DNA of 64,000 nucleotides, taken from positions 3,021,800 through 3,085,799 of the forward strand of contig CBDFKX010000002.1 in the NCBI GenBank assembly GCA_965249055.1, read 5' to 3'. The notes under the pieces are model-generated. The model saw only the letters and a list, made by a program, of their open reading frames with translations, searched no databases and was not told the DNA's origin. Positions 23,560 through 35,168 of the stretch are shown here, piece after piece. Each line of letters starts with the position of its first letter. Position 1 is the first letter of the stretch. The position numbers were made by a program, and so were the translations under genes. Source of the DNA: Candidatus Aldehydirespiratoraceae bacterium. GTDB lineage: Bacteria; Actinomycetota; Acidimicrobiia; Acidimicrobiales; Aldehydirespiratoraceae.

Positions 23560-24630
23560 TCACCGCAGTAGTGCCGCGTAACGCCCTAGGTAGAGATCGG
23601 CGAGCCTGACCATCGAGAACTCATCAGCTCTCTCATTGGCCGAGGCAACAAGTTCGCAAACCCTGGTTTTGTCTCGCAGCAACTCGCCGATCACACCGGC
23701 TAGCGCCTTGTAATCGCCAGCGGGAAACAACAGCGCATCACGTCCATGCCTAGCCGCGTTGGCGTAACCACCGATATCAGAGGCGACTACAGGCGTGCCC
23801 GCCGCCATCCCCTCAAGTAGAACCAGCCCGAACGACTCGCCGAACAAGGAAGGGGCACAAAAGACGTCTGCACCGCGGAGCCGGGCGATCTTCTCGGTCT
23901 CGTCGATCGAACCCAACCACTCCAGCCTTGAGTCGTCGCCGTACTGCGTCTTTAGTTTCTGCGTCTCAGGGCCGCTGCCCGCGATCCAGACGCGAGTATC
24001 GGACGGAAGCAACTTCACTGCCTCAAGCAGAACTTGCAGTCCTTTTCGCTCTTCGTGTCGACCTATGAACAACACGGTGGGACGATCGGTGGCGTAAGCC
24101 GGACTCTTCCGATAACGGCTGACCTCAACCCCATTGAAGAGAATGTGATACTCACCACCAAGATGTTCCATAGCGAGCTTGCGAGCATCCTCAGAGACCA
24201 CCACACGATCGTCTAGCCGACGAGCCAGATAGCGCACCGCCTTGGGCATCAGTTCGTACGACAATGATCGGCCCGCGGCATGAAACGTGCCGATCAACGG
24301 CGCGGGGTGGGTCAGCAACGCAGTCGTCGTCGGCCCCGGCGCGAGCGGCTCATGCAAGTGAATGACATCGAAAGCTTCATCGCGCATCGCTCGAATGACA
24401 CGAAGCTGAGCGGAGGGATCTGGTGCCACCGGGGCGATCGATCCGTTAGCCGACGCCGGCAAACTCAGACCCAGCGGAGTCACGCCCGCGTCCGGTGGCG
24501 GTCCATCGCAAGGCGCCAACACCCGTACCGCGTGACCGCGACGCCGCAACGCCCGGGCCAACGCCAACACTTGCGATTGAACCCCGCCGGGCATAGTCAG
24601 GCTGTAGGGACAGATCAATCCAATGCGCAT
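23560..24630 (-). CDS. pimA: GT4 glycosyltransferase, phosphatidylinositol alpha-mannosyltransferase-like
   Basis: 356 aa with a GT-B/GT4 E-x7-E region (GESFGLVLLEGMAAGTPVVAS). It lies directly downstream of the pgsA and acyltransferase genes, as in the actinobacterial PIM cluster. Confidence 0.75.
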   Translation of the reverse strand: MRIGLICPYSLTMPGGVQSQVLALARALRRRGHAVRVLAPCDGPPPDAGVTPLGLSLPASANGSIAPVAPDPSAQLRVIRAMRDEAFDVIHLHEPLAPGPTTTALLTHPAPLIGTFHAAGRSLSYELMPKAVRYLARRLDDRVVVSEDARKLAMEHLGGEYHILFNGVEVSRYRKSPAYATDRPTVLFIGRHEERKGLQVLLEAVKLLPSDTRVWIAGSGPETQKLKTQYGDDSRLEWLGSIDETEKIARLRGADVFCAPSLFGESFGLVLLEGMAAGTPVVASDIGGYANAARHGRDALLFPAGDYKALAGVIGELLRDKTRVCELVASANERADEFSMVRLADLYLGRYAALLR

Positions 24631-25538
24631 CAGAGTTCCCGCAAGTGCTCGGGCAGTGGCAGGCCGAGTAGCTCATAGTCACTGGGCCAGTTAGGCGACA
24701 GCATGTGCCATTGCTCTGGTGCCTGTGATATCAGAAACTCAAAATCTCTCGCCAAATCCTGAGTTACACGGGCGATGTCTTGGCGAAGCTTGCCGCGTCG
24801 TGTGGTATCGAGCGGCGGGGTGGAAATGGCATGCCGAGTGTTATCGCGCCAATACACCGCCGAGGGAATCAGCGGCGATCCAGTCCTCAAAGCCAAAGTT
24901 GCGGGTCCGGCTGGGAGCGTGGTTTTTTCGCCGAAGAACTCAACCGGGATGCCGTTGCCCTGAATGTCTCGATCCGCCAACAGGCACAACACTTGACCCT
25001 GTTTCAGCGCTTGAATGCTGGTCTTGGCGGCGTCGGGTCCGAGGGGCACGATATTCATGCCCAACGACTCGCGGAATCCAACGAACCACTCAAACAATTC
25101 TGGCGGCTCGAGCGGCTCCACCACTGCGGTGACCTTGAATTCAGGCACCAGGGCCAGCCACCATGCCGCCCATTCCCAGGTCCCGAGATGGGGCAACGCC
25201 AGAATCGGCCCTTGACCGCGTTCCACAGCCGCGGCGATCTCACCGAACCCCTCGAAACCGAATCCCCGATCGATTTCCTCGACCGGCACACTCGGCAAAC
25301 GGAAACTCTCGGCGTAATAGCGGGTGTACCACTCGAAGGTCTTGGCGACGCGACGACGCGTCTCGGTAGAAGACATGGGTCGCCTGAGCACCCGCTCAAG
25401 ATTACGAGCCGCGACCAGTCGCTTCTGCCCAGTGTTCGCCGAAGCAGCCCCCACAGCACGCGCCACCGCGTTTTGGACGACAACCGGCACATGGCGGGCC
25501 AACAGCGACCCCGCCCGATAGGCGGAGACCGATGCCAC
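24630..25538 (-). CDS. patA: HtrB/LpxL-family acyltransferase (PIM acyltransferase-like)
   Basis: 302 aa lysophospholipid acyltransferase-like protein (ILALPHLGTWEWA). It sits between pgsA and pimA, the same position as M. tuberculosis Rv2611c. Confidence 0.65.
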   Translation of the reverse strand: MASVSAYRAGSLLARHVPVVVQNAVARAVGAASANTGQKRLVAARNLERVLRRPMSSTETRRRVAKTFEWYTRYYAESFRLPSVPVEEIDRGFGFEGFGEIAAAVERGQGPILALPHLGTWEWAAWWLALVPEFKVTAVVEPLEPPELFEWFVGFRESLGMNIVPLGPDAAKTSIQALKQGQVLCLLADRDIQGNGIPVEFFGEKTTLPAGPATLALRTGSPLIPSAVYWRDNTRHAISTPPLDTTRRGKLRQDIARVTQDLARDFEFLISQAPEQWHMLSPNWPSDYELLGLPLPEHLREL

Positions 25539-25540
25539 GG

Positions 25541-26236
25541 TCAGCCTTCGCGCAGTGTCCGACGTTCACGCATTCGCTGAGCCCAAGCCGACTCGTTGCG
25601 TCTACGCGAGCGTTGGCGAGGCTGGCGCCGAGGCCGACGGGCCGGAAGGGGTCTGTCTATGGACGCCTGACGCCATACCTTGACGAAACGCTGCAGCGCA
25701 GTAACCCCAGTGAGGGCGAGCATGATCCACAGGATCGGTATGAGGACCTCGGGGAACAGCAGGGCCAAAGCAAGCATGATGACGCGCTCGGCCCGTTCCA
25801 TGATCCCGCCTTTGGCCTCATAACCGAGCGACTCGGCCTTGGCCCGCTGGTACGAGACAAACATCGCCAAAGCCATGATCGCCACCGGCAACATCATGAT
25901 TCGACCCGGCTCGGTGCTAGCTAGGTGCCAGGCGACTCCACCGAACAAGAGAGCATCGGTCAGCCGGTCAGAGACAGAATCGAAATAGGCACCCCTATCG
26001 GACCCGGAATCAGCGGCGCGCGCCACTGCTCCATCAAGAGCGTCAGAGATGCCGGTGATCAACAGGAAAAGCAAGCCGATTCGGAGATAGCCGGCACCGA
26101 TCGTCACTGCTGCGACGGTCGCCATGACAATCCCGACGATTGTGATGACGTCGGGGGTGACGCCTGTGCGACGCAAACTGTGACCAATGGGGGTGAGGCT
26201 TCGGTCAACTGCCGTGCGCCAGTTTCCGTCGAACAT
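25541..26236 (-). CDS. pgsA: CDP-alcohol phosphatidyltransferase (phosphatidylinositol-phosphate synthase-like)
   Basis: 231 aa polytopic membrane protein with the CDP-alcohol motif DALDGAVAR...G...D...D. Confidence 0.85.
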   Translation of the reverse strand: MFDGNWRTAVDRSLTPIGHSLRRTGVTPDVITIVGIVMATVAAVTIGAGYLRIGLLFLLITGISDALDGAVARAADSGSDRGAYFDSVSDRLTDALLFGGVAWHLASTEPGRIMMLPVAIMALAMFVSYQRAKAESLGYEAKGGIMERAERVIMLALALLFPEVLIPILWIMLALTGVTALQRFVKVWRQASIDRPLPARRPRRQPRQRSRRRNESAWAQRMRERRTLREG

Positions 26237-26293
26237 GAAACGCTCCTCGCGGGGACGATTTCACGATAGCAGCACGTTGGGCACGATCCCAGG

Positions 26294-27070
26294 GTGCCGC
26301 TGACGCAGCCGCGTGAGGGACTCCCAGATTGGCTGGAGTTGCAACGGTTTAGCCGGTCTTCTAGGTATTTCACTGGGCCTGTTCAGTGGTCGGTTGACAA
26401 TGACATCAGCAATATTGGCGGGAATTGTTTTCTGCCCGATGAGCCAGTGTCTCGTGGCGAGACGGCGCTCTATCTCTGGAGCATGGAAGGCCAACCCGCG
26501 TTTGAATTTGGACATTCGTTCGTAGATGTGACTGTCGAAGCCCAGAATACTGCAATTACCTGGTTGTCCGAGACCGAAATAACCACCGGAACCTCCGACA
26601 CTGAGTTCTCGCCTCAAAACACCTTGAGGCGTGCTGAGATAGCGGCGTTTTTGCATCGTTTGGCCGGCGAACCGGACGCAGACCCGCATCCGTTCGTTGA
26701 TGTCCTAGCCGGTTGGCAACAAGCACCCGTTTCGTGGCTGGTAGCTTCTGGAATCACCACCGGAACGTCGCCGACAACGTTTTCGCCTGACGACAGGCTG
26801 ACCCGCGCTCAACTCGTCACGTTGTTGTGGCGCTACCAAGGCAAACCGGAAGTGACCGTCGATCCCTCCTCGCCAGTGTGTGATTCCAGGTTCAATGCCG
26901 TCAGCGCCGGTTGGTATCACAGTTGTGGTTTGCGCAGCGACGACTCAATCATCTGCTGGGGCGCCAACCTCTCAGGGCGGGCTGACGCACCCGAGGGCAG
27001 CTTCAAAGCCATCGCCACCGGAACGACTCAATCATCTGCTGGGGGCCGGTACCTACACCGCGGGGTGTGA
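26294..27070 (+). pseudogene. Truncated remnant of the SLH/RCC1-blade family, lacking a signal peptide and broken in the second blade
   Basis: Homology to the other two family members begins only at about 26370 (YFTGPVQWSVDNDI), so the signal peptide and first residues are missing. Three SLH repeats are retained. After one blade (WYHSCGLRSDDSIICWGANLSGRADAPEGSF) the frame breaks: acgactcaatcatctgctgggg at 27011 repeats 26939 in another frame. A stop follows at 27068. Confidence 0.7.
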
Positions 27071-27083
27071 GATGGTTGTGATC

Positions 27084-27623
27084 TCAGGTGCGTAGGTTGG
27101 TCCAGTCTTCGGGGTTCTGTTCGACGAATCTGTCGATGATCTCACCGTCGATACCGTCTACTAGCACCAGTCCCCGATGTGTCGGCGAAGGTTCGTTGCT
27201 GTAGAGAAGCACCCTCCAGGTGGGCCGACTCCGTAGACCTCGCCATCCAAGCTGCGCCGACGCGTGACCAACCGGGAAACCAACGTCACGCGCCGCTGCC
27301 TGCAACGCCTGCTCCTCGTCGAAGGACAGATCCCAACCACCCTGAGCGTGATAAAGACCCACCAGGATCAAAATAATCCCAGCCACGAGCACTCCGTTGT
27401 TGACGAACGAGTCCTTCACAACGGGCGTGTCTTCGCCGACCGTGAGGCTCCCCAGGACGCAAACGGTGCCGATCAACACGTACAAAACCGCCGGAATACG
27501 ACGCCTGCTGTTGTTCGGAAAAAGATACGGCTCCGCAACCGCGCTGGGGTCAAGATCCGCCGGAAGCGAATCGCGGAGTTCGTCATCTCGTTTTGTTTCG
27601 CCCGTAGCGTGGTCGTCGTTCAC
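27084..27623 (-). CDS. Hypothetical membrane protein (two predicted TM helices)
   Basis: 179-aa ORF on the backbone strand. Hydrophobic segments IPAVLYVLIGTVCVLGSL and GVLVAGIILILVGLY are present, but I recognise no family motif. Confidence 0.5.
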   Translation of the reverse strand: MNDDHATGETKRDDELRDSLPADLDPSAVAEPYLFPNNSRRRIPAVLYVLIGTVCVLGSLTVGEDTPVVKDSFVNNGVLVAGIILILVGLYHAQGGWDLSFDEEQALQAAARDVGFPVGHASAQLGWRGLRSRPTWRVLLYSNEPSPTHRGLVLVDGIDGEIIDRFVEQNPEDWTNLRT

Positions 27624-27724
27624 GGAAGTGAGCCTAGCTTTAGCCTGGTTTCATTGATGCTCGGGCCATGACCGTGTTGGGAGTAGTGTCTTCGCGGTTC
27701 GATTCCATTGAGTTTTGAGGGACG

Positions 27725-29188
27725 GTGGTGATGCGGGTTCGGTTGGTGGGTTGGTGTGGGTTGGTGTTGTGTTTGGCGGCGTCTTCGCTGTTGGTGGCGG
27801 CACCGGCGGGCGCGGTCGCGGGTTACGGTGACGTAGCCGAGGATCGGTATTACACCGAGCCGGTCCAGTGGTCAGTCGACAACGACATCACCGATCTTTC
27901 CGGGAATTGCTTTGGCCCAGACGCTCCGGTGTCACGCGGAGAAACCGCGGTGTATTTCTGGAACATGGAAGGCCAACCCTCCGCTGTGGCTCATTCGTTC
28001 AGCGACATAGGAGTCCAAGCCCAAAACGATGCTGTTTCCTGGATGGCAGCCGCGGGTATCACCACCGGAACCTCACCAACCACGTTCTCTCCCGATGAGA
28101 CCTCGACGCGCGCTCAACTAGCAGCGTTCTTGCATCAGCTAGCAGGTCAACCAGCCACCGGGGCGCATTCCTTTGTTGATGTGGTCGAAGGTTGGCAACA
28201 CGCCCCCGTTTCTTGGCTGGCGACTTCTGGCATCACCACCGGAACCTCACCAACCACGTTCTCTCCCGATGAGACCTTGACGCGCGCTGACCTGGTCACG
28301 TTCCTGTACCGCTATCAGGGCGGACCTGATGTCACCGTAGACCCCCTCACGCCAACATGTGACCCCAGTGCGTTTCTAGCCATTGCCGCAGGCGGGTTGC
28401 ATTCGTGTGGGGTGCGCACAGACAACATCATCGCCTGCTGGGGCGACAACTACTGGGGGCAGACATATGCTCCTGCGGGAACATTTCAACACGTGTCCAC
28501 TGGCGCGAGTCACTCGTGCGCGATCCGCACAGACAACACGATCACTTGCTGGGCCAACAACCACAGAGGTCAATCCGATGCGCCGGCGGGAGAGTTCCAA
28601 AACGTCGCCACCGGAGCAAGCCACTCGTGCGCGATCCGCACAGACGACACCATCACTTGCTGGGGCGACGAAGAACACGGTGAAACGGATGCCCCCGCCA
28701 CAACATTTCTTACCGTCACCGCCGGAGCGAGCCACTCGTGCGCGATCCGCACAGACAACACGATTACCTGCTGGGGCAACAACCACAGAGGTCAATCCGA
28801 TGCGCCCGCGGGAGAGTTCCTAACCGTCAGCGCCAGCTACGAGCATTCATGTGGTTTGCGCACAGACAACACCATCACCTGCTGGGGCTGGAATTCTTAT
28901 GGACAAACAAACGCACCTACCGGAACGTTCCAAAATATCACCACCGGCACGTCGCATTCTTGTGCGATCCGCACAGACAACACCATCACCTGCTGGGGCT
29001 GGAATTCTTATGGACAAACAAACGCACCTACCGGAACGTTCCAGAATGTCACGACCGGCGCGTTCCATTCTTGTGCGATCCGCACAGACAACACCATCAC
29101 CTGCTGGGGCTGGAATTTCCACGGGCAAACAGAATCACCCACCCGCAACTGGTGGCCAGGCAGCGACGATCTGGTGCCAGGTATCTGA
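27725..29188 (+). CDS. Secreted SLH-anchored protein with 7 RCC1-like blades
   Basis: 487 aa with a signal-like N-terminus (LVGWCGLVLCLAASSLLVAAPAGA), three SLH repeats and seven 37-aa blades (HSCAIRTDNTITCWG.N..GQ.(D/N)AP.G.F). It is a clear paralogue of 1655-4636 without the HExxH domain. Confidence 0.85.
   Translation: MVMRVRLVGWCGLVLCLAASSLLVAAPAGAVAGYGDVAEDRYYTEPVQWSVDNDITDLSGNCFGPDAPVSRGETAVYFWNMEGQPSAVAHSFSDIGVQAQNDAVSWMAAAGITTGTSPTTFSPDETSTRAQLAAFLHQLAGQPATGAHSFVDVVEGWQHAPVSWLATSGITTGTSPTTFSPDETLTRADLVTFLYRYQGGPDVTVDPLTPTCDPSAFLAIAAGGLHSCGVRTDNIIACWGDNYWGQTYAPAGTFQHVSTGASHSCAIRTDNTITCWANNHRGQSDAPAGEFQNVATGASHSCAIRTDDTITCWGDEEHGETDAPATTFLTVTAGASHSCAIRTDNTITCWGNNHRGQSDAPAGEFLTVSASYEHSCGLRTDNTITCWGWNSYGQTNAPTGTFQNITTGTSHSCAIRTDNTITCWGWNSYGQTNAPTGTFQNVTTGAFHSCAIRTDNTITCWGWNFHGQTESPTRNWWPGSDDLVPGI
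28859..29117 (+). repeat. Near-identical 111-bp tandem units (about 2.3 copies) encoding blades 5-7
   Basis: ggacaaacaaacgcacctacc recurs at 28901 and 29012, exactly 111 bp apart. cgcacagacaacaccatcacctgctggggctggaatt recurs three times. An additional 222-bp-spaced pair lies at about 28505-28605 and 28727-28827. Confidence 0.85.
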
Positions 29189-29653
29189 GAGCGTCTCGGG
29201 CATCACCCGCACATTGGCGACCGAAGTCATGAAGTTGGTGTCGCCGGCGAAGCGTGGCACGACATGAACATGGAGATGATCCGGCACACCCGCCCCTGAG
29301 CCTCGGCCAAGATTGGCGCCAACGTTGATGCCGTGGGGCTGATAAGCGGCCGTAACCGCCAGCGTGGCACTGCGGACCGCGGCCCAGAGTTCGCTGTGTT
29401 CATCGGTCGTCAGGTCGCCGAGCGCGGTGACTGGCCGATTGGGGACCACCAGCAGATGGCCTCGCGCGTACGGATAGATGTTGAGCACCGCGAAGCAGAG
29501 TCCGCCCCGCCAAACTATGTAGGTCTGCGCATCAGGCAGTTCGCTGTCAACAAGGGCCTCGAACAGCGTCTTGCCCTCTGGCACCACCAACTCAGTGTCA
29601 ACACCAGCTTCAGCAACCGGTATGCGCCACCCGGCCCAAAGGCGCTCAACCAT
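29135..29653 (-). CDS. HIT family protein (Ap4A phosphorylase-like)
   Basis: 172 aa with the histidine triad HLHVHVVPR, located downstream of thrS as in the M. tuberculosis Rv2613c position. Confidence 0.85.
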   Translation of the reverse strand: MVERLWAGWRIPVAEAGVDTELVVPEGKTLFEALVDSELPDAQTYIVWRGGLCFAVLNIYPYARGHLLVVPNRPVTALGDLTTDEHSELWAAVRSATLAVTAAYQPHGINVGANLGRGSGAGVPDHLHVHVVPRFAGDTNFMTSVANVRVMPETLSDTWHQIVAAWPPVAGG

Positions 29654-29690
29654 GGAGAGTCACGACCATCTCGAGATTAGGCACCTGGGC

Positions 29691-31676
29691 TCAGAGCGGG
29701 CCAGCGGCTTCTGCCGCAAGCTGTTCGGCAAATTCGACCACCGGCACGTCGCGTTCAGGCGCGTTCTGGTCTCGGCGGTTGACTCCGACCGTGTCGTTTC
29801 CCACGTCATCGTCGCCCACAACGAGGATGTAAGGGATCTTCTGGACCTTGCCGTTGCGGACACGTTTGCCGAGCGGCTCAACCGCATCAGCCACCTCAAC
29901 GCGAGCACCCACGCCACGCAGGCGGCTGGCAACGGTGTGGGCATAATCGTTGTGGACCGCGGCCACCGGCAGGACACTTACTTGAGTTGGTGCCAGCCAG
30001 GTGGGAAAGGCGCCGGCATAGTGCTCGAGCAAGACCCCGAAGAACCTCTCCACCGATCCGAACAGAGCCCGATGAATCATCACCGGACGCTTACGTGACC
30101 CGTCAGCCGAGATGTACTCCAGATCGAAGCGCTCTGGAAGGTTGAAGTCGAGTTGCACAGTCGAGAGCTGCCAGGAACGACCGATCGCGTCACCTACGTC
30201 GACATCGATCTTGGGGCCATAAAATGCGCCTCCACCTTCATCAACCACGTAGTCCAAGCCACAGGCATCGAGAGCATCGCGCAGACCATCGGTGGCTTGT
30301 GACCACAGTTCGTCTTCACCAACCGACTTGTCAGGCGGACGGGTCGAGAGTTTGGCGACAAAGTCATCGAAGCCGAATGCACGAAGCACGCTGAGCACAA
30401 AATCGAGCAGCGAAGCCAACTCAGCCGCAATGTCTTCTTGAGCACAAAAAATGTGGCTGTCATCCACCGTGAATCCACGGCTCCGCATCAAACCGTGAAC
30501 CGCTCCCGATAGTTCGTAGCGATACACCGCCCCCAACTCGAATAGACGCAGAGGTAACTCACGGTAGCTGCGTTGACCCGAGCGATAAATCATCACATGA
30601 AACGGACAATTCATCGGCTTGGGGTAATACGACGTGCCGTCGAGATCCATAGGCGGATACATCGAGTCGGCGTAGAAATCGAGATGTCCAGAGGTCTCCC
30701 ACAGCACCGACTTGGCCAAATGCGGTGTGAAGACAAAGTCATAACCGCCTTGTTCGTGACGCTTGCGGCTGTAGTCCTCCATCAGCTTGCGGACCAGAGC
30801 ACCCTTGGGATGCCACACAGCCAAACCGGGACCCAACTCCTCGGGCCAACTAAGAAGATCGAGATCGACCGCAAGGCAACGATGATCCCGCTTGGCTGCC
30901 TCGGCCAACATCTGCAGATGGGTTTTCAGTTCCTTGCGCGACGACCATGCGGTGCCATACACCCGCTGAAGCATCGGACGCGAAACATCGCCCCGCCAAT
31001 AGGCCCCCGCAACAGACTGGAGCTTGAAAGCTCCGAGCCGGCCTGTGCTGGGCACATGGGGACCGGTACACATGTCGCGGAAAGTGCCATCACTGTGGAT
31101 GTCGCCGTTTGCGTAATAGCTTATTGACGACGCGTCTGCGACCTCGCCAGTGTCTTCACCTGTCGCCGCGCCCGACACGACACGCTCAATAATCTCGGCC
31201 TTGTACATATCATCGGCAAAGAAGGACGCCGCTTCTTTGGCGTCTAGCTCGTGTCGCACGAAAGGTTGATCCTCAGCGACGATCTCTGCCATGCGCGCCT
31301 CGATCCGCTCCAAATCAGTCTCGGAAAGCGCCTGGCCACCGGGCAGTTCGACGTCGTAGTAGAAGCCATGTTCGATCGGCGGACCGATCGCAAGTTGGGT
31401 ACCGGGGTAAAGGTCACCAATGGCCTGCGCCAATACGTGGGCGGTTGAATGACGGATAGTACGAAGACCAGCTTCGGACTGAGGTGTGACGATTTCGACT
31501 GTTGACCCATCGCGTAGCGCCACGTTGAGATCCTGTTCGACTCCATCGACAACCGCTATCAGCGCGACCGAAGCGAGGCGAGGACTAATTGACGCAGCCA
31601 GATCAGCAGCCGACGACCCGACGCTGAGTTGTCGCTCGGATCCATCTAGCAGTCGAACGGAGATCAAATCAGACAT
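29691..31676 (-). CDS. thrS: Threonine--tRNA ligase
   Basis: 661 aa with a TGS domain at the N-terminus, an editing-domain HSTAHVLAQA, class II catalytic motifs and an anticodon-binding C-terminus. Confidence 0.93.
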   Translation of the reverse strand: MSDLISVRLLDGSERQLSVGSSAADLAASISPRLASVALIAVVDGVEQDLNVALRDGSTVEIVTPQSEAGLRTIRHSTAHVLAQAIGDLYPGTQLAIGPPIEHGFYYDVELPGGQALSETDLERIEARMAEIVAEDQPFVRHELDAKEAASFFADDMYKAEIIERVVSGAATGEDTGEVADASSISYYANGDIHSDGTFRDMCTGPHVPSTGRLGAFKLQSVAGAYWRGDVSRPMLQRVYGTAWSSRKELKTHLQMLAEAAKRDHRCLAVDLDLLSWPEELGPGLAVWHPKGALVRKLMEDYSRKRHEQGGYDFVFTPHLAKSVLWETSGHLDFYADSMYPPMDLDGTSYYPKPMNCPFHVMIYRSGQRSYRELPLRLFELGAVYRYELSGAVHGLMRSRGFTVDDSHIFCAQEDIAAELASLLDFVLSVLRAFGFDDFVAKLSTRPPDKSVGEDELWSQATDGLRDALDACGLDYVVDEGGGAFYGPKIDVDVGDAIGRSWQLSTVQLDFNLPERFDLEYISADGSRKRPVMIHRALFGSVERFFGVLLEHYAGAFPTWLAPTQVSVLPVAAVHNDYAHTVASRLRGVGARVEVADAVEPLGKRVRNGKVQKIPYILVVGDDDVGNDTVGVNRRDQNAPERDVPVVEFAEQLAAEAAGPL

Positions 31677-34400: not shown

Positions 34401-35168
34401 GTGGGTCTATTGGACGGAAAACGAATAGTGGTAACAGGCGTCCTCACCGACGCTTCTTTGGCGTTCGGGGTGGCGACCCGAGCCCAAGCGGAGGGTGCCG
34501 AGATCGTACTCACAGGCGCAGGCCGCGGTTTGCGACTTACGCAACGAACTGCCCGCAAATTACCTACTGAACCCGAAGTGCTTGAGTTCGACGTCACCGA
34601 GCCGAGCCATGCCGAGAGCTTGCGTAACGCTCTCGAAGCAAAATGGGGTCGCGTAGACGGTGCCCTTCATGCCATCGGTTTCGCTCCCGAAGCCTGCCTG
34701 GGTGAGGACTTCATGGGAGCTACCTGGGATGACGTGAAAGTGGCCATTGAGATCTCAACCTATTCACTGAAGCTGCTAGCCGACGCCGTGGCGCCACTGA
34801 TGACAAACGGAGGCTCGATTGTCGCTCTCGACTTCGATGCGACAGTTACCTGGCCTGCCTACAACTGGATGGGAGTCGCCAAGGCGGCTCTGGAGTCGAC
34901 CAACCGTTATCTCGCCCGCGAGCTTGGGCCGGCTCAGATCCGCTGCAACCTCATAGCCGCTGGGCCGATTCGGACGATGGCGGCTAAGTCCATCCCCGGG
35001 TTTTCAGCTTTTGAAGAAGTCTGGGACGACCGTGCACCGCTCGGCTGGGATGTCGGAGATTCCAGCGCCGTAGCAGAGACAACCGTTGCTCTGTTGTCTG
35101 ACTGGTTTCGCGCCACGACAGGTTCGATGATCCACGTCGACGGCGGTTACCACATCATCGGTGCCTGA
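34401..35168 (+). CDS. fabI: Enoyl-[acyl-carrier-protein] reductase (NADH), InhA/FabI type
   Basis: 255 aa. The N-terminus [24 protein letters not shown] closely resembles InhA ([21 protein letters not shown]), within an SDR fold. Confidence 0.85.
   Translation: [255 protein letters not shown]

What the first reader, a model, noticed from the sequence alone, without database searches (positions are those of the whole stretch)
26237..29190. Opposite-strand SLH/RCC1 genes wedged into the conserved HIT / pgsA-acyltransferase-pimA cluster
The order thrS-HIT-pgsA-acyltransferase-pimA is a conserved actinobacterial unit (M. tuberculosis Rv2614c-Rv2610c, from memory), in which HIT and pgsA are adjacent. 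Here about 2.9 kb separates them. That gap holds a decayed SLH/RCC1 remnant (+), a small membrane protein (-) and an intact 7-blade SLH/RCC1 gene (+). Both SLH genes run against the otherwise uniform minus-strand transcription of about 30 kb. This is the signature of secondary insertion or duplication of the family into a core operon, with one copy already degenerating. It also breaks any thrS-to-pimA co-transcription.
Basis: partly seen in the sequence, partly recalled or inferred. Interest (0 to 1): 0.6.

Follow-up and report, generated by a model that had tools for sequence, protein, structure and literature searches.

The report
Surface-protein genes wedged into lipid operon
In a sponge-linked Acidimicrobiia genome, two members of a large family of wall-anchored propeller proteins sit backwards on either side of a native membrane-protein gene inside the thrS-HIT-PIM lipid cluster, and one is a decaying pseudogene; this is a well-documented but ordinary case of gene-family gain and loss at a variable spot.

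Summary
Between pgsA (25541-26236, -) and HIT (29135-29653, -) lie an SLH/RCC1 remnant (26294-27070, +), a 179-aa membrane protein (27084-27623, -) and an intact 7-blade SLH/RCC1 gene (27725-29188, +).

- **Correction:** the small membrane protein ("P3") is not part of any insertion. It is a conserved, Acidimicrobiia-specific gene. The native order is thrS-HIT-P3-pgsA-acyltransferase-pimA, so HIT and pgsA are not adjacent in this lineage.
- **Two insertions:** two separate SLH/RCC1 genes were inserted antisense, one at HIT|P3 (site B) and one at P3|pgsA (site A).
- **Site B:** filled in one whole clade of the genus and under purifying selection. Blade number varies from 3 to 8 between orthologues.
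- **Site A:** filled only in the closest relatives. It is intact in one genome and broken by different deletions in four others. In this genome the start codon, signal peptide and more than five blades are gone.
- **Family size:** 16 SLH+RCC1 genes here, not three.
- **Mechanism:** no transposon features and no close donor were found, so the origin of both copies is unresolved.
- **Hotspot:** in other species of the genus, site B holds other surface-protein genes or has lost HIT.

Verdict: ordinary birth-and-death of a surface-protein family at a plastic locus.

The parts
23560..24630 (-). pimA-like GT4 mannosyltransferase, a native cluster gene
   Evidence: Pfam Glycos_transf_1 and Glyco_transf_4. 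Syntenic in all relatives.
24630..25538 (-). Phosphatidylinositol mannoside acyltransferase, a native cluster gene
   Evidence: NCBIfam NF005919, 243 bits against a cut-off of 209. Pfam Lip_A_acyltrans.
25541..26236 (-). pgsA-type CDP-alcohol phosphatidyltransferase, PIP-synthase-like, a native cluster gene
   Evidence: Pfam PF01066. Best NCBIfam hits are inositol-phosphate synthases, below their cut-offs.
26295..27083 (+). Site A insert: what remains of an SLH/RCC1 gene (ORF 26294-27070). It is a pseudogene lacking its start codon, its signal peptide and more than 5 of 7 blades, and it has a frameshifted 3' end.
   Evidence: Aligned to the intact orthologue in G015, it shows deletions of 186 bp (ATG plus signal peptide), 444 bp (4 blades) and 139 bp (frameshift). 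The left boundary follows the conserved ...GATCCCAGGG. The right boundary is at the P3 stop codon.
27084..27623 (-). P3: native, Acidimicrobiia-specific membrane protein of 179 aa with 2 TM helices and an alpha/beta C-terminal domain. Function unknown.
   Evidence: Present in 38 of 41 relatives. 6,357 homologues, none named and none with a Pfam domain among the 120 listed. Found in 10 of 10 other Acidimicrobiia and 0 of 140 other Actinomycetota. Lies between HIT and pgsA in relatives. Model and fold search gave no significant match.
27624..27730 (.). Divergent intergenic region between the P3 start and the site B gene start. It must hold the site B promoter, and a P3 promoter if P3 has its own. 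Native sequence ends at about 27637 (...GAGCCTAG).
   Evidence: Junction comparison of empty and filled sites. The promoter scan found nothing here.
27638..29149 (+). Site B insert carrying the intact SLH/RCC1 gene. The ORF is 27725-29188, with the likely start at the ATG at 27731. It encodes a signal peptide, 3 SLH motifs and a 7-blade BLIP-II-like propeller.
   Evidence: Pfam. Orthologues in all clade Y genomes. omega 0.16-0.26. Model with best fold match BLIP-II, TMt 0.78-0.82. Boundaries.
29135..29188 (.). 54-nt convergent overlap of the site B gene and HIT. The HIT stop and its last 4 codons (29135-29149) lie in insert-side sequence. The last 13 codons of the SLH/RCC1 ORF (29150-29188) are antisense to native HIT codons.
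   Evidence: In G005 and G006 the two genes merely abut, with overlapping stop codons (CTAA). The G000 subclade is about 35 nt shorter at this junction and lacks both stops.
29135..29653 (-). HIT-family protein, similar to actinobacterial ATP adenylyltransferase, a native cluster gene
   Evidence: Pfam HIT. NF052622, 141.6 bits, below its cut-off of 290.
29691..31676 (-). Threonyl-tRNA synthetase, a native cluster gene
   Evidence: Pfam TGS, tRNA_SAD, tRNA-synt_2b and HGTP_anticodon.

Best explanation
The native gene order in class Acidimicrobiia is thrS-HIT-P3-pgsA-PIM acyltransferase-pimA, all on one strand. Within one genus of Ca. Aldehydirespiratoraceae, two different members of a large family were inserted antisense into the two short spacers beside P3. 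That genus has sponge-associated members. The family encodes secreted proteins with an SLH wall anchor and a compact BLIP-II/RCC1-like propeller.

**Site B (HIT|P3).** This copy is older. It is kept in a whole clade and is under purifying selection, so it probably makes a surface-displayed binding protein. Recombination among its 111-bp repeats makes it gain and lose blades.

**Site A (P3|pgsA).** This copy is found only in the closest relatives and is being lost. It was inactivated at least twice independently and then eroded by further deletions. In this genome nothing exportable is left.

**Locus behaviour.** The locus is a plastic spot where surface-protein genes come and go. This most likely happens by illegitimate recombination, with homologous recombination through the flanking core genes, and not by a mobile element.

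**What is shown and what is inferred.** Shown: gene content, the native order, the derived state of the inserts, the decay of site A, selection on site B, and the fold. Inferred: the insertion mechanism, surface display, the binding function, and any effect on transcription of the operon.
For: **Native order**
- P3 lies between HIT and pgsA in other genera and families (L022, L024, L027, L029, L030).
- Gap tallies outside the genus: HIT-to-P3 is 200 bp or less in 54 of 58 loci, and P3-to-pgsA is 200 bp or less in 38 of 59.
- P3 is in 38 of 41 relatives and is specific to Acidimicrobiia.

**Family**
- The SLH/RCC1 family is confined to family f1 and expanded in the genus: 24 of 24 f1 genomes against 0 of 16 in the other families of the order.
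- This genome has 16 SLH+RCC1 ORFs.

**History of the two sites**
- The species tree combined with locus maps puts site B in all of clade Y and site A only in the G000 subclade.
- Site A is intact in G015. G017 and G011 share a 1-bp frameshift and a 333-bp deletion. G000 has deletions of 186, 444 and 139 bp. G012 has deletions of 646 and 444 bp.
- dS is 0.13 for site A and 0.15 for site B, within the 0.03-0.20 range of flanking genes. This fits vertical descent within the subclade. Site B omega is 0.16-0.26.

**Protein**
- Signal peptide ending AGA|VAGYGDV, shared across paralogues.
- 7 RCC1_2 repeats. Propeller model with BLIP-II as top match, rmsd 2.1 A, TMt 0.82.
- A CsaB-type pyruvyl transferase is present in the genome.

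**Against a mobile element**
- No terminal inverted repeats or target-site duplication.
- No shared flank motif among paralogues.

**Hotspot behaviour at site B**
- G003 and G001 carry an SLH-X gene; G001 also carries a 2,267-aa S8 subtilase protein.
- G012 carries both SLH/RCC1 and SLH-X, with a duplicated HIT 3' fragment.
- The HIT orthologue was not found in G009, G007 or G008.
Against: - No insertion mechanism was identified.
- The source of the site A copy is unknown. No paralogue above 65% identity exists in five genomes searched.
- AU tests cannot reject site A plus site B as one clade (p = 0.25), or site B plus the G008 gene as one clade (p = 0.33).
- Polarity inside the genus is ambiguous. 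The basal G008 already has a divergent P3/SLH-RCC1 pair. The empty site in G016 is nested among filled or deleted ones, so either several gains or several losses are needed.
- dN/dS of the site A remnant is still low (0.15-0.43 on 7-17 changes). Relaxed selection is therefore not demonstrated by substitutions, only by the deletions.
- There are no expression data.
- All comparison genomes are MAGs, so some rearrangements (for example in G014) could be assembly errors.
Confidence: 0.8

Rival explanations
1. The SLH/RCC1 genes are the ancestral content of these junctions, and the tight HIT-P3-pgsA arrangement seen elsewhere results from repeated clean deletions.
For: The basal genus member G008 has a divergent P3/SLH-RCC1 pair, and orthology with site B is not rejected (p-AU 0.33). 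G005 and G006 have an unusually short P3|pgsA spacer that lacks the conserved GATCC..AGGG segment, which would fit a past deletion.
Against: The family was not found outside family f1 (0 of 16 genomes in the other families). Other genera of f1 and other families have spacers of 15-170 bp at both junctions. This model would need dozens of clean, independent losses.
Confidence: 0.04
2. The genes are cargo of a mobile or site-specific cassette system that targets the 3' ends of operon genes. This would explain why both inserts abut the stop codon of the upstream gene (HIT or P3) and alter its last 4-5 codons.
For: Both inserts sit in the same relative configuration: antisense, 3' end against the 3' end of the upstream operon gene, with 0-3 nt between the stops. 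The last 4-5 residues of HIT and P3 differ between filled and empty sites. G012 has a duplication of about 110 bp of the HIT 3' end flanking an extra cassette. Small tandem duplications cluster at these junctions in G005, G006, G007 and G017.
Against: No inverted or direct terminal repeats. No conserved sequence upstream or downstream of the 13 paralogues compared. No integrase or transposase ORF in the gap. Convergent abutment is also what selection for compactness would leave.
Confidence: 0.07
3. The antisense wedge is kept because it regulates the operon. Convergent transcription from the site B gene into HIT and thrS, and read-through of thrS-HIT antisense to the SLH/RCC1 gene, would couple surface-protein expression with thrS, HIT and PIM expression.
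For: There is a 54-nt overlap of convergent ORFs with no room for a terminator. No convincing intrinsic terminator lies on either strand between 27623 and 29653. Orientation is conserved in all filled sites.
Against: In G005 and G006 the genes only abut, so the overlap is a recent deletion of about 35 nt and not a conserved feature. HIT is dispensable in the genus: not found in three genomes and carrying a nonsense codon in one. The same junction holds unrelated genes in other species.
Confidence: 0.1

Closest known systems
Mycobacterium tuberculosis thrS-Rv2613c(HIT)-pgsA1-Rv2611c-pimA cluster (Rv2614c-Rv2610c; recalled from memory, not tested here)
   Same: The same set and order of thrS, HIT, CDP-alcohol phosphatidyltransferase, PIM acyltransferase and a GT4 mannosyltransferase, all co-directional.
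   Different: Acidimicrobiia have an extra conserved membrane-protein gene (P3) between HIT and pgsA. P3 was not found in 140 other Actinomycetota genomes. This genus additionally carries antisense surface-protein genes on both sides of P3.
BLIP-II, the beta-lactamase inhibitor protein II of Streptomyces exfoliatus (PDB 1jtd, 3qhy, 3qi0)
   Same: A secreted actinobacterial 7-bladed propeller with short blades of about 37-40 aa. It is the top fold match: E = 1e-22, TMt 0.78-0.82, rmsd 2.1-4.0 A, 25-27% identity.
   Different: BLIP-II is a free propeller with no SLH anchor. No beta-lactamase-binding function is implied here. Blade number varies from 3 to 8 among orthologues of the site B gene.
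SLH-anchored surface proteins of Firmicutes (for example B. anthracis Sap/EA1), which depend on CsaB-pyruvylated wall polymer (from general knowledge)
   Same: An N-terminal signal peptide followed by three SLH motifs. A PS_pyruv_trans (CsaB-type) gene is present in the genome, next to another SLH protein.
   Different: The host is an Acidimicrobiia bacterium. The passenger domain is a propeller, not an S-layer crystallisation domain. Anchoring was not tested.
Flexible or replacement genomic islands that hold alternative surface-structure genes between conserved core genes (a general concept from population genomics, from memory)
   Same: Alternative surface-protein genes occupy the same junction in different species of one genus, flanked by conserved core genes and without mobile-element hallmarks. 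They are SLH/RCC1, an SLH-X HExxH-type protein and an S8 subtilase giant.
   Different: The scale is very small, at 1-10 kb and one or two genes. Exchange by homologous recombination is inferred, not shown.
Eukaryote-like repeat proteins enriched in sponge symbionts, including the Aldehydirespiratoraceae genus UBA11606 (PMC11706023)
   Same: A repeat-protein family expanded in a sponge-linked Acidimicrobiia lineage. Record titles of relatives point to sponge MAGs. The paper describes the family's symbiotic clade.
   Different: That paper does not mention RCC1 or SLH (0 occurrences). These proteins are wall-anchored, not obviously secreted effectors.

Membership tests
Actinobacterial PIM-biosynthesis cluster (thrS-HIT-pgsA-acyltransferase-pimA) | PIM acyltransferase (Rv2611c type) present | tested here: met
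   NF005919 equivalog, 243 bits against a cut-off of 209.
Actinobacterial PIM-biosynthesis cluster (thrS-HIT-pgsA-acyltransferase-pimA) | Phosphatidylinositol phosphate synthase (pgsA1 type) | tested here: inconclusive
   Pfam CDP-OH_P_transf is above its cut-off. NF045883 PIPSynth scores 138 bits against a cut-off of 170, and NF040950 scores 150 against 180.
Actinobacterial PIM-biosynthesis cluster (thrS-HIT-pgsA-acyltransferase-pimA) | HIT and pgsA directly adjacent | tested here: not met
   P3 lies between them in this genome and in relatives across the order.
SLH-domain cell-wall-anchored proteins | Signal peptide plus tandem SLH motifs | tested here: met
   PF00395 at E = 5e-21 with 2 stretches scored. 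Three repeats of about 58 aa are visible in residues 34-215. The signal peptide is MRVRLVGWCGLVLCLAASSLLVAAPAGA.
SLH-domain cell-wall-anchored proteins | Pyruvylated wall polymer machinery (CsaB) in the genome | tested here: met
   PF04230 match of 85 bits, above its cut-off, at G000:C2:2314136-2314978.
RCC1-like / BLIP-II-like 7-bladed propeller | Seven blades closing into a propeller | tested here: met
   7 RCC1_2 stretches at E = 8e-59. The model has 7 x 3 strands at pLDDT 70-95. BLIP-II and UVR8/RCC1 are the top fold matches.
Pseudogene (site A copy, 26294-27070) | Disabling lesions relative to an intact orthologue | tested here: met
   Compared with G015, it has lost the ATG and signal peptide (186 bp) and 4 blades (444 bp), and it has a 139-bp frameshifting deletion.
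Pseudogene (site A copy, 26294-27070) | Relaxed selection on substitutions | tested here: inconclusive
   dN/dS is 0.15-0.43 on only 7-17 differences.
Transposon, integron-like cassette or other mobile element | Terminal repeats, target-site duplication, a recombinase gene, or conserved cassette ends | tested here: not met
   No TIR or TSD. No shared flank motifs among paralogues. No recombinase-like ORF in the gap.

The most novel reading that the evidence does not exclude
The two spacers beside P3 act as a dedicated exchange site. Alternative SLH-anchored surface-protein genes (BLIP-II-like propellers with variable blade number, an HExxH-type SLH protein, a giant subtilase) would be swapped between co-occurring sponge-symbiont lineages by homologous recombination through thrS/HIT and pgsA. 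This would give strain-level surface variation. The antisense, stop-to-stop arrangement would tie their expression to the thrS-PIM envelope operon.
Probability: 0.15. Interest if true: 0.5.

Novelty: new member of a known kind. Interest (0 to 1): 0.3.

Why it matters
The finding mainly serves as a correction and as a clean worked example.
- It shows that the Acidimicrobiia PIM cluster contains an extra, class-specific and wholly uncharacterised membrane-protein gene (P3). P3 is a better candidate for follow-up in envelope biology than the insertion itself.
- It documents step by step how a repeat-rich surface-protein family is born, trimmed blade by blade and erased within one genus. This is useful for people who study sponge-symbiont surface proteins and repeat-protein evolution.
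- It does not reveal a new mechanism.

Tried and rejected
- **RNA evidence.** Co-transcription, promoters and antisense effects could not be tested.
- **Promoter and terminator scan.** The consensus scan of 25400-29900 found no more than shuffled controls and nothing in the key spacers.
- **Shared motifs.** A search for shared upstream or downstream motifs among 13 paralogues found none, apart from recent duplicate pairs.
- **Repeats at the insert boundaries.** Only the internal 111-nt blade repeats and SLH similarity turned up.
- **Donor search for the site A copy.** In G015, G005, G006, G016 and G008 nothing exceeded 65% identity.
- **Family tree and AU tests.** The aim was to decide between local duplication and import. 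The backbone is unresolved, and none of three groupings is rejected (p = 0.25-0.34).
- **dN/dS on the remnant.** There are too few changes to show relaxation.
- **P3 function.** No Pfam or NCBIfam family, no PDB sequence relative and no significant fold match.
- **SLH module structure.** It was not modelled with confidence: pLDDT is below 35 for residues 1-213 with a 4-sequence alignment.
- **Literature.** No paper links RCC1 or SLH to this lineage.


Full report
**What is in the sequence.**
- ORF listing and Pfam/NCBIfam scans confirm a minus-strand run of cluster genes:
  - a pimA-like GT4 at 23560-24630;
  - a PIM acyltransferase at 24630-25538 (NF005919, above its cut-off);
  - a pgsA-type CDP-alcohol phosphatidyltransferase at 25541-26236;
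  - a HIT protein at 29135-29653;
  - thrS at 29691-31676.
- The 2,898 bp between pgsA and HIT hold three ORFs:
  - a plus-strand 258-aa ORF at 26294-27070, with SLH motifs, one RCC1_2 blade and no signal peptide;
  - a minus-strand 179-aa ORF at 27084-27623, called P3 here, with two hydrophobic helices;
  - a plus-strand 487-aa ORF at 27725-29188, with a signal peptide, three SLH motifs and seven RCC1_2 repeats.
- The surrounding minus-strand run extends from about 4661 to 34352. One further plus-strand gene, a FabI-like SDR at 34401-35168, ends it.

**Organism and family.**
- Relatives of P3 carry record titles of Acidimicrobiales / Ca. Aldehydirespiratoraceae MAGs.
- That family contains a sponge-symbiotic clade (PMC11706023).
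- The window's genome (3.59 Mb) has 16 ORFs with both SLH and RCC1-like parts. They range from 258 to 1,206 aa. It also has 14 SLH-only ORFs and 2 RCC1-only ORFs.
- Some other paralogues are also damaged at the N-terminus.
- The family was found in 24 of 24 genomes of the same taxonomic family and in 0 of 16 genomes of the other families of the order. It is strongly expanded in this genus.

**The native gene order.**
- P3 is not cargo. It is present in 38 of 41 relatives across the order.
- It has 6,357 database homologues, none named and none with a Pfam domain among those listed.
- With a profile, it was found in all 10 other Acidimicrobiia sampled and in none of 140 genomes of other classes of Actinomycetota.
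- In other genera and families, and in one species of the same genus (G016), the order is thrS-HIT-P3-pgsA-acyltransferase-pimA on one strand.
- Among 68 Acidimicrobiales loci outside the genus:
  - the HIT-to-P3 gap is 200 bp or less in 54 of 58;
  - the P3-to-pgsA gap is 200 bp or less in 38 of 59;
  - 13 of 59 have more than 1 kb at P3|pgsA, filled with other, partly opposite-strand genes such as an EF-G-like GTPase.
- HIT and pgsA are therefore not adjacent in this lineage.
- The gap consists of two independent insertions on either side of a native gene.

**Site B (HIT|P3).**
- A species tree from seven flanking proteins gives:
  - G008 as basal;
  - clade X as (G003,(G009,(G001,G007,G016)));
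  - clade Y as ((G005,G006),((G012,G015),(G000,(G017,G014)))).
- Orthologues of the 487-aa gene form a clade with 100/99 support. They occupy site B in every clade Y genome.
- Between G000 and G015 or G017, dS is 0.11-0.15, similar to the flanking genes at 0.03-0.20. omega is 0.16-0.26. This fits a vertically inherited, functional gene.
- Blade number is nevertheless unstable. It is 7 in G000, G015, G017 and G005, 8 in L041, 5 in G012, 4 in G011 and 3 in G014. All changes are in-frame multiples of 111 bp.
- The native left flank ends at ...GAGCCTAG, at about 27637.
- On the right, G005 and G006 have the two convergent genes abutting with overlapping stop codons (CTAA).
- The G000 subclade is about 35 nt shorter there and has lost both stops, so each ORF now runs 54 nt into the antisense of the other.
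  - HIT takes its last four codons and its stop from insert-side sequence.
  - The SLH/RCC1 protein takes its last 13 residues from antisense HIT.
- Elsewhere in the genus the same junction holds other genes or has lost HIT:
  - an SLH-X gene with an HExxH-like motif in G003 and G001;
  - an additional 2,267-aa S8 subtilase protein in G001;
  - both SLH/RCC1 and SLH-X, separated by a duplicated fragment of about 110 bp of the HIT 3' end, in G012.
- The HIT orthologue was not found in G009, G007 or G008. It carries an in-frame TGA in G016.
- Site B is thus a plastic spot for surface-protein genes.

**Site A (P3|pgsA).**
- Site A is filled only in the G000 subclade. The copies form their own clade with 100/100 support.
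- G015 has an intact gene of 475 aa from its ATG, with a signal peptide and seven blades.
- The lesions in the other genomes, from alignment to G015, are:

| Genome | Lesions relative to G015 |
|---|---|
| G017 and G011 | shared 1-bp frameshift in the signal peptide and a shared 333-bp (3-blade) deletion |
| G011 | one further blade lost |
| G017 | a 77-bp duplication gained |
| G000 | 186 bp lost (ATG plus signal peptide); 444 bp lost (4 blades); 139 bp lost (frameshift) |
| G012 (sister of G015) | 646 bp and 444 bp lost |

- G000's larger deletions span the sites of the lesions shared by G017 and G011.
- The simplest reading is one inactivation in the G000/G011/G017 ancestor, a second in G012, and continued erosion afterwards.
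- Substitution-based relaxation is not demonstrable. dN/dS is 0.15-0.43 on 7-17 changes.
- The insert begins right after the conserved ...GATCCCAGGG, at 26294/26295. It ends at the P3 stop. P3's last four residues differ between filled genomes (NLRT) and empty ones (SPRN or DSRN).

**Origin and mechanism.**
- Site A and site B copies are only 62-66% identical in the SLH region. No closer paralogue exists in five genomes searched.
- The backbone of the SLH tree is a polytomy.
- AU tests reject none of site A + site B, site B + the G008 gene, or site B + SLH-X as single clades (p = 0.25-0.34).
- Local duplication, import from another locus, and exchange with an unsampled relative all remain possible.
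- There are no terminal or flanking repeats, no shared flank motifs among paralogues and no recombinase ORF. A classical mobile element is therefore not supported.
- Small tandem duplications cluster at these junctions, which suggests error-prone local recombination:
  - an 18-nt unit x5 in G005;
  - a 16-nt unit x5 in G007;
  - about 70 bp in G006;
  - 77 bp in G017.

**What the intact gene probably does.**
- The product has a Sec-type signal peptide ending AGA|VAGYGDV, which is conserved across paralogues.
- It has a three-motif SLH module.
- Its propeller is modelled at pLDDT 70-95 as seven 3-stranded blades. The best structural match is the secreted Streptomyces inhibitor BLIP-II (TMt 0.78-0.82, rmsd 2.1-4.0 A), followed by UVR8, CRINKLY4 and RCC1.
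- A CsaB-type pyruvyl transferase is encoded in the genome.
- I infer a wall-anchored binding protein displayed on the surface. Its ligand is unknown.

**Consequences for the operon (inferred only).**
- After the insertions, P3 and pgsA-pimA are separated from thrS-HIT by genes transcribed the other way.
- I found no convincing terminators or promoters.
- Other Acidimicrobiales families already tolerate 3.5-5.6 kb of foreign genes at P3|pgsA. Independent transcription of the PIM genes would therefore not be exceptional.

**Verdict.**
- This is lineage-specific birth-and-death of a large surface-protein family at a plastic locus inside a conserved envelope and translation cluster. It is a new member of a known kind.
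- The most useful by-products are three:
  - recognition of P3 as a conserved, class-specific, uncharacterised member of the PIM cluster;
  - the stepwise record of pseudogene erosion;
  - the blade-number change between orthologues.
- Earlier notes of this scan on the same window described the decaying copy, the 54-bp overlap and the related 14-blade paralogue. They agree with what I found.

Noticed in passing
window 27084-27623 (-): P3 is a conserved, Acidimicrobiia-specific protein with 2 TM helices and an alpha + 4-strand C-terminal domain. It has 6,357 homologues, no Pfam or NCBIfam family and no significant PDB fold match. It is almost always encoded between HIT and the PIP-synthase gene, so it is a candidate uncharacterised partner of PIM or envelope biosynthesis.
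   Followed up: partly
L019 (G009), L020 (G007), L023 (G008), L022 (G016): The Rv2613c-like HIT gene is being lost in the genus. No orthologue was found in G009, G007 or G008, only a 30-34% identical paralogue. G009 keeps about 20 nt of the HIT 3' end, and G007 keeps the HIT-P3 spacer. G016 has an in-frame TGA replacing a Gly codon.
   Followed up: partly
L033, L034, L035, L036, L038, L041 (site B orthologues): The number of 37-aa blades in orthologues of the 487-aa gene ranges from 3 to 8 among closely related genomes, always in frame (units of 111 bp). Three- to five-blade versions may not close a propeller.
   Followed up: partly
L113 3779-10582 (+) and 10908-12809 (-) (G001); L014 10550-12430 (+) (G012); L021 (G003): The same HIT|P3 junction holds other surface-protein genes in other species. 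One is a 2,267-aa protein with an S8 subtilase domain. Another is an 'SLH-X' protein of 575-633 aa with an SLH module and an HELAHNFGL (HExxH-like) motif. G012 carries SLH-X behind a duplicated fragment of about 110 bp of the HIT 3' end.
   Followed up: partly
L017 (G005), L020 (G007), L032 (G006), L013 (G017) at the P3 3' and 5' ends: Short tandem duplications cluster at the junctions. An 18-nt unit x5 in G005 and a 16-nt unit x5 in G007 cover the P3 stop region. A duplication of about 70 bp in G006 covers the P3 start. A 77-bp duplication in G017 lies upstream of the site A gene.
   Followed up: no
L114 and L117 (G014:C2, about 2.711 Mb and about 0.812 Mb): In G014, P3 is not followed by pgsA within 18 kb. 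Fragments of pgsA (aa 1-106 and 104-231), acylT (aa 1-176) and the P3 C-terminus lie scrambled about 1.9 Mb away. This is either a real rearrangement with its breakpoint at site A or an assembly artefact.
   Followed up: partly
L088, L095, L108 (other Acidimicrobiales families), between P3 and pgsA: Several other families have 3.5-5.6 kb between P3 and pgsA. It holds opposite-strand genes such as an EF-G-like GTPase and DinB-like proteins, so this junction is variable across the order.
   Followed up: no
G000:C2:2314136-2314978 (+), locus L116: A CsaB-type polysaccharide pyruvyl transferase (PF04230, 85 bits) lies next to a 916-aa SLH protein (C2:2310457-2313207). It is the likely machinery for SLH anchoring in this Acidimicrobiia genome.
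   Followed up: no
G000:C2:1136937-1138100 (-) and C2:2946308-2949616 (+): Other family members also look damaged at the N-terminus. One has a scrambled signal-peptide region and the other has no signal peptide, so decay is not limited to the copy in this window.
   Followed up: no
window 34401-35168 (+): A FabI-like enoyl-ACP reductase / SDR (PF13561, E = 2e-70) is the only other plus-strand gene near the long minus-strand run.
   Followed up: yes
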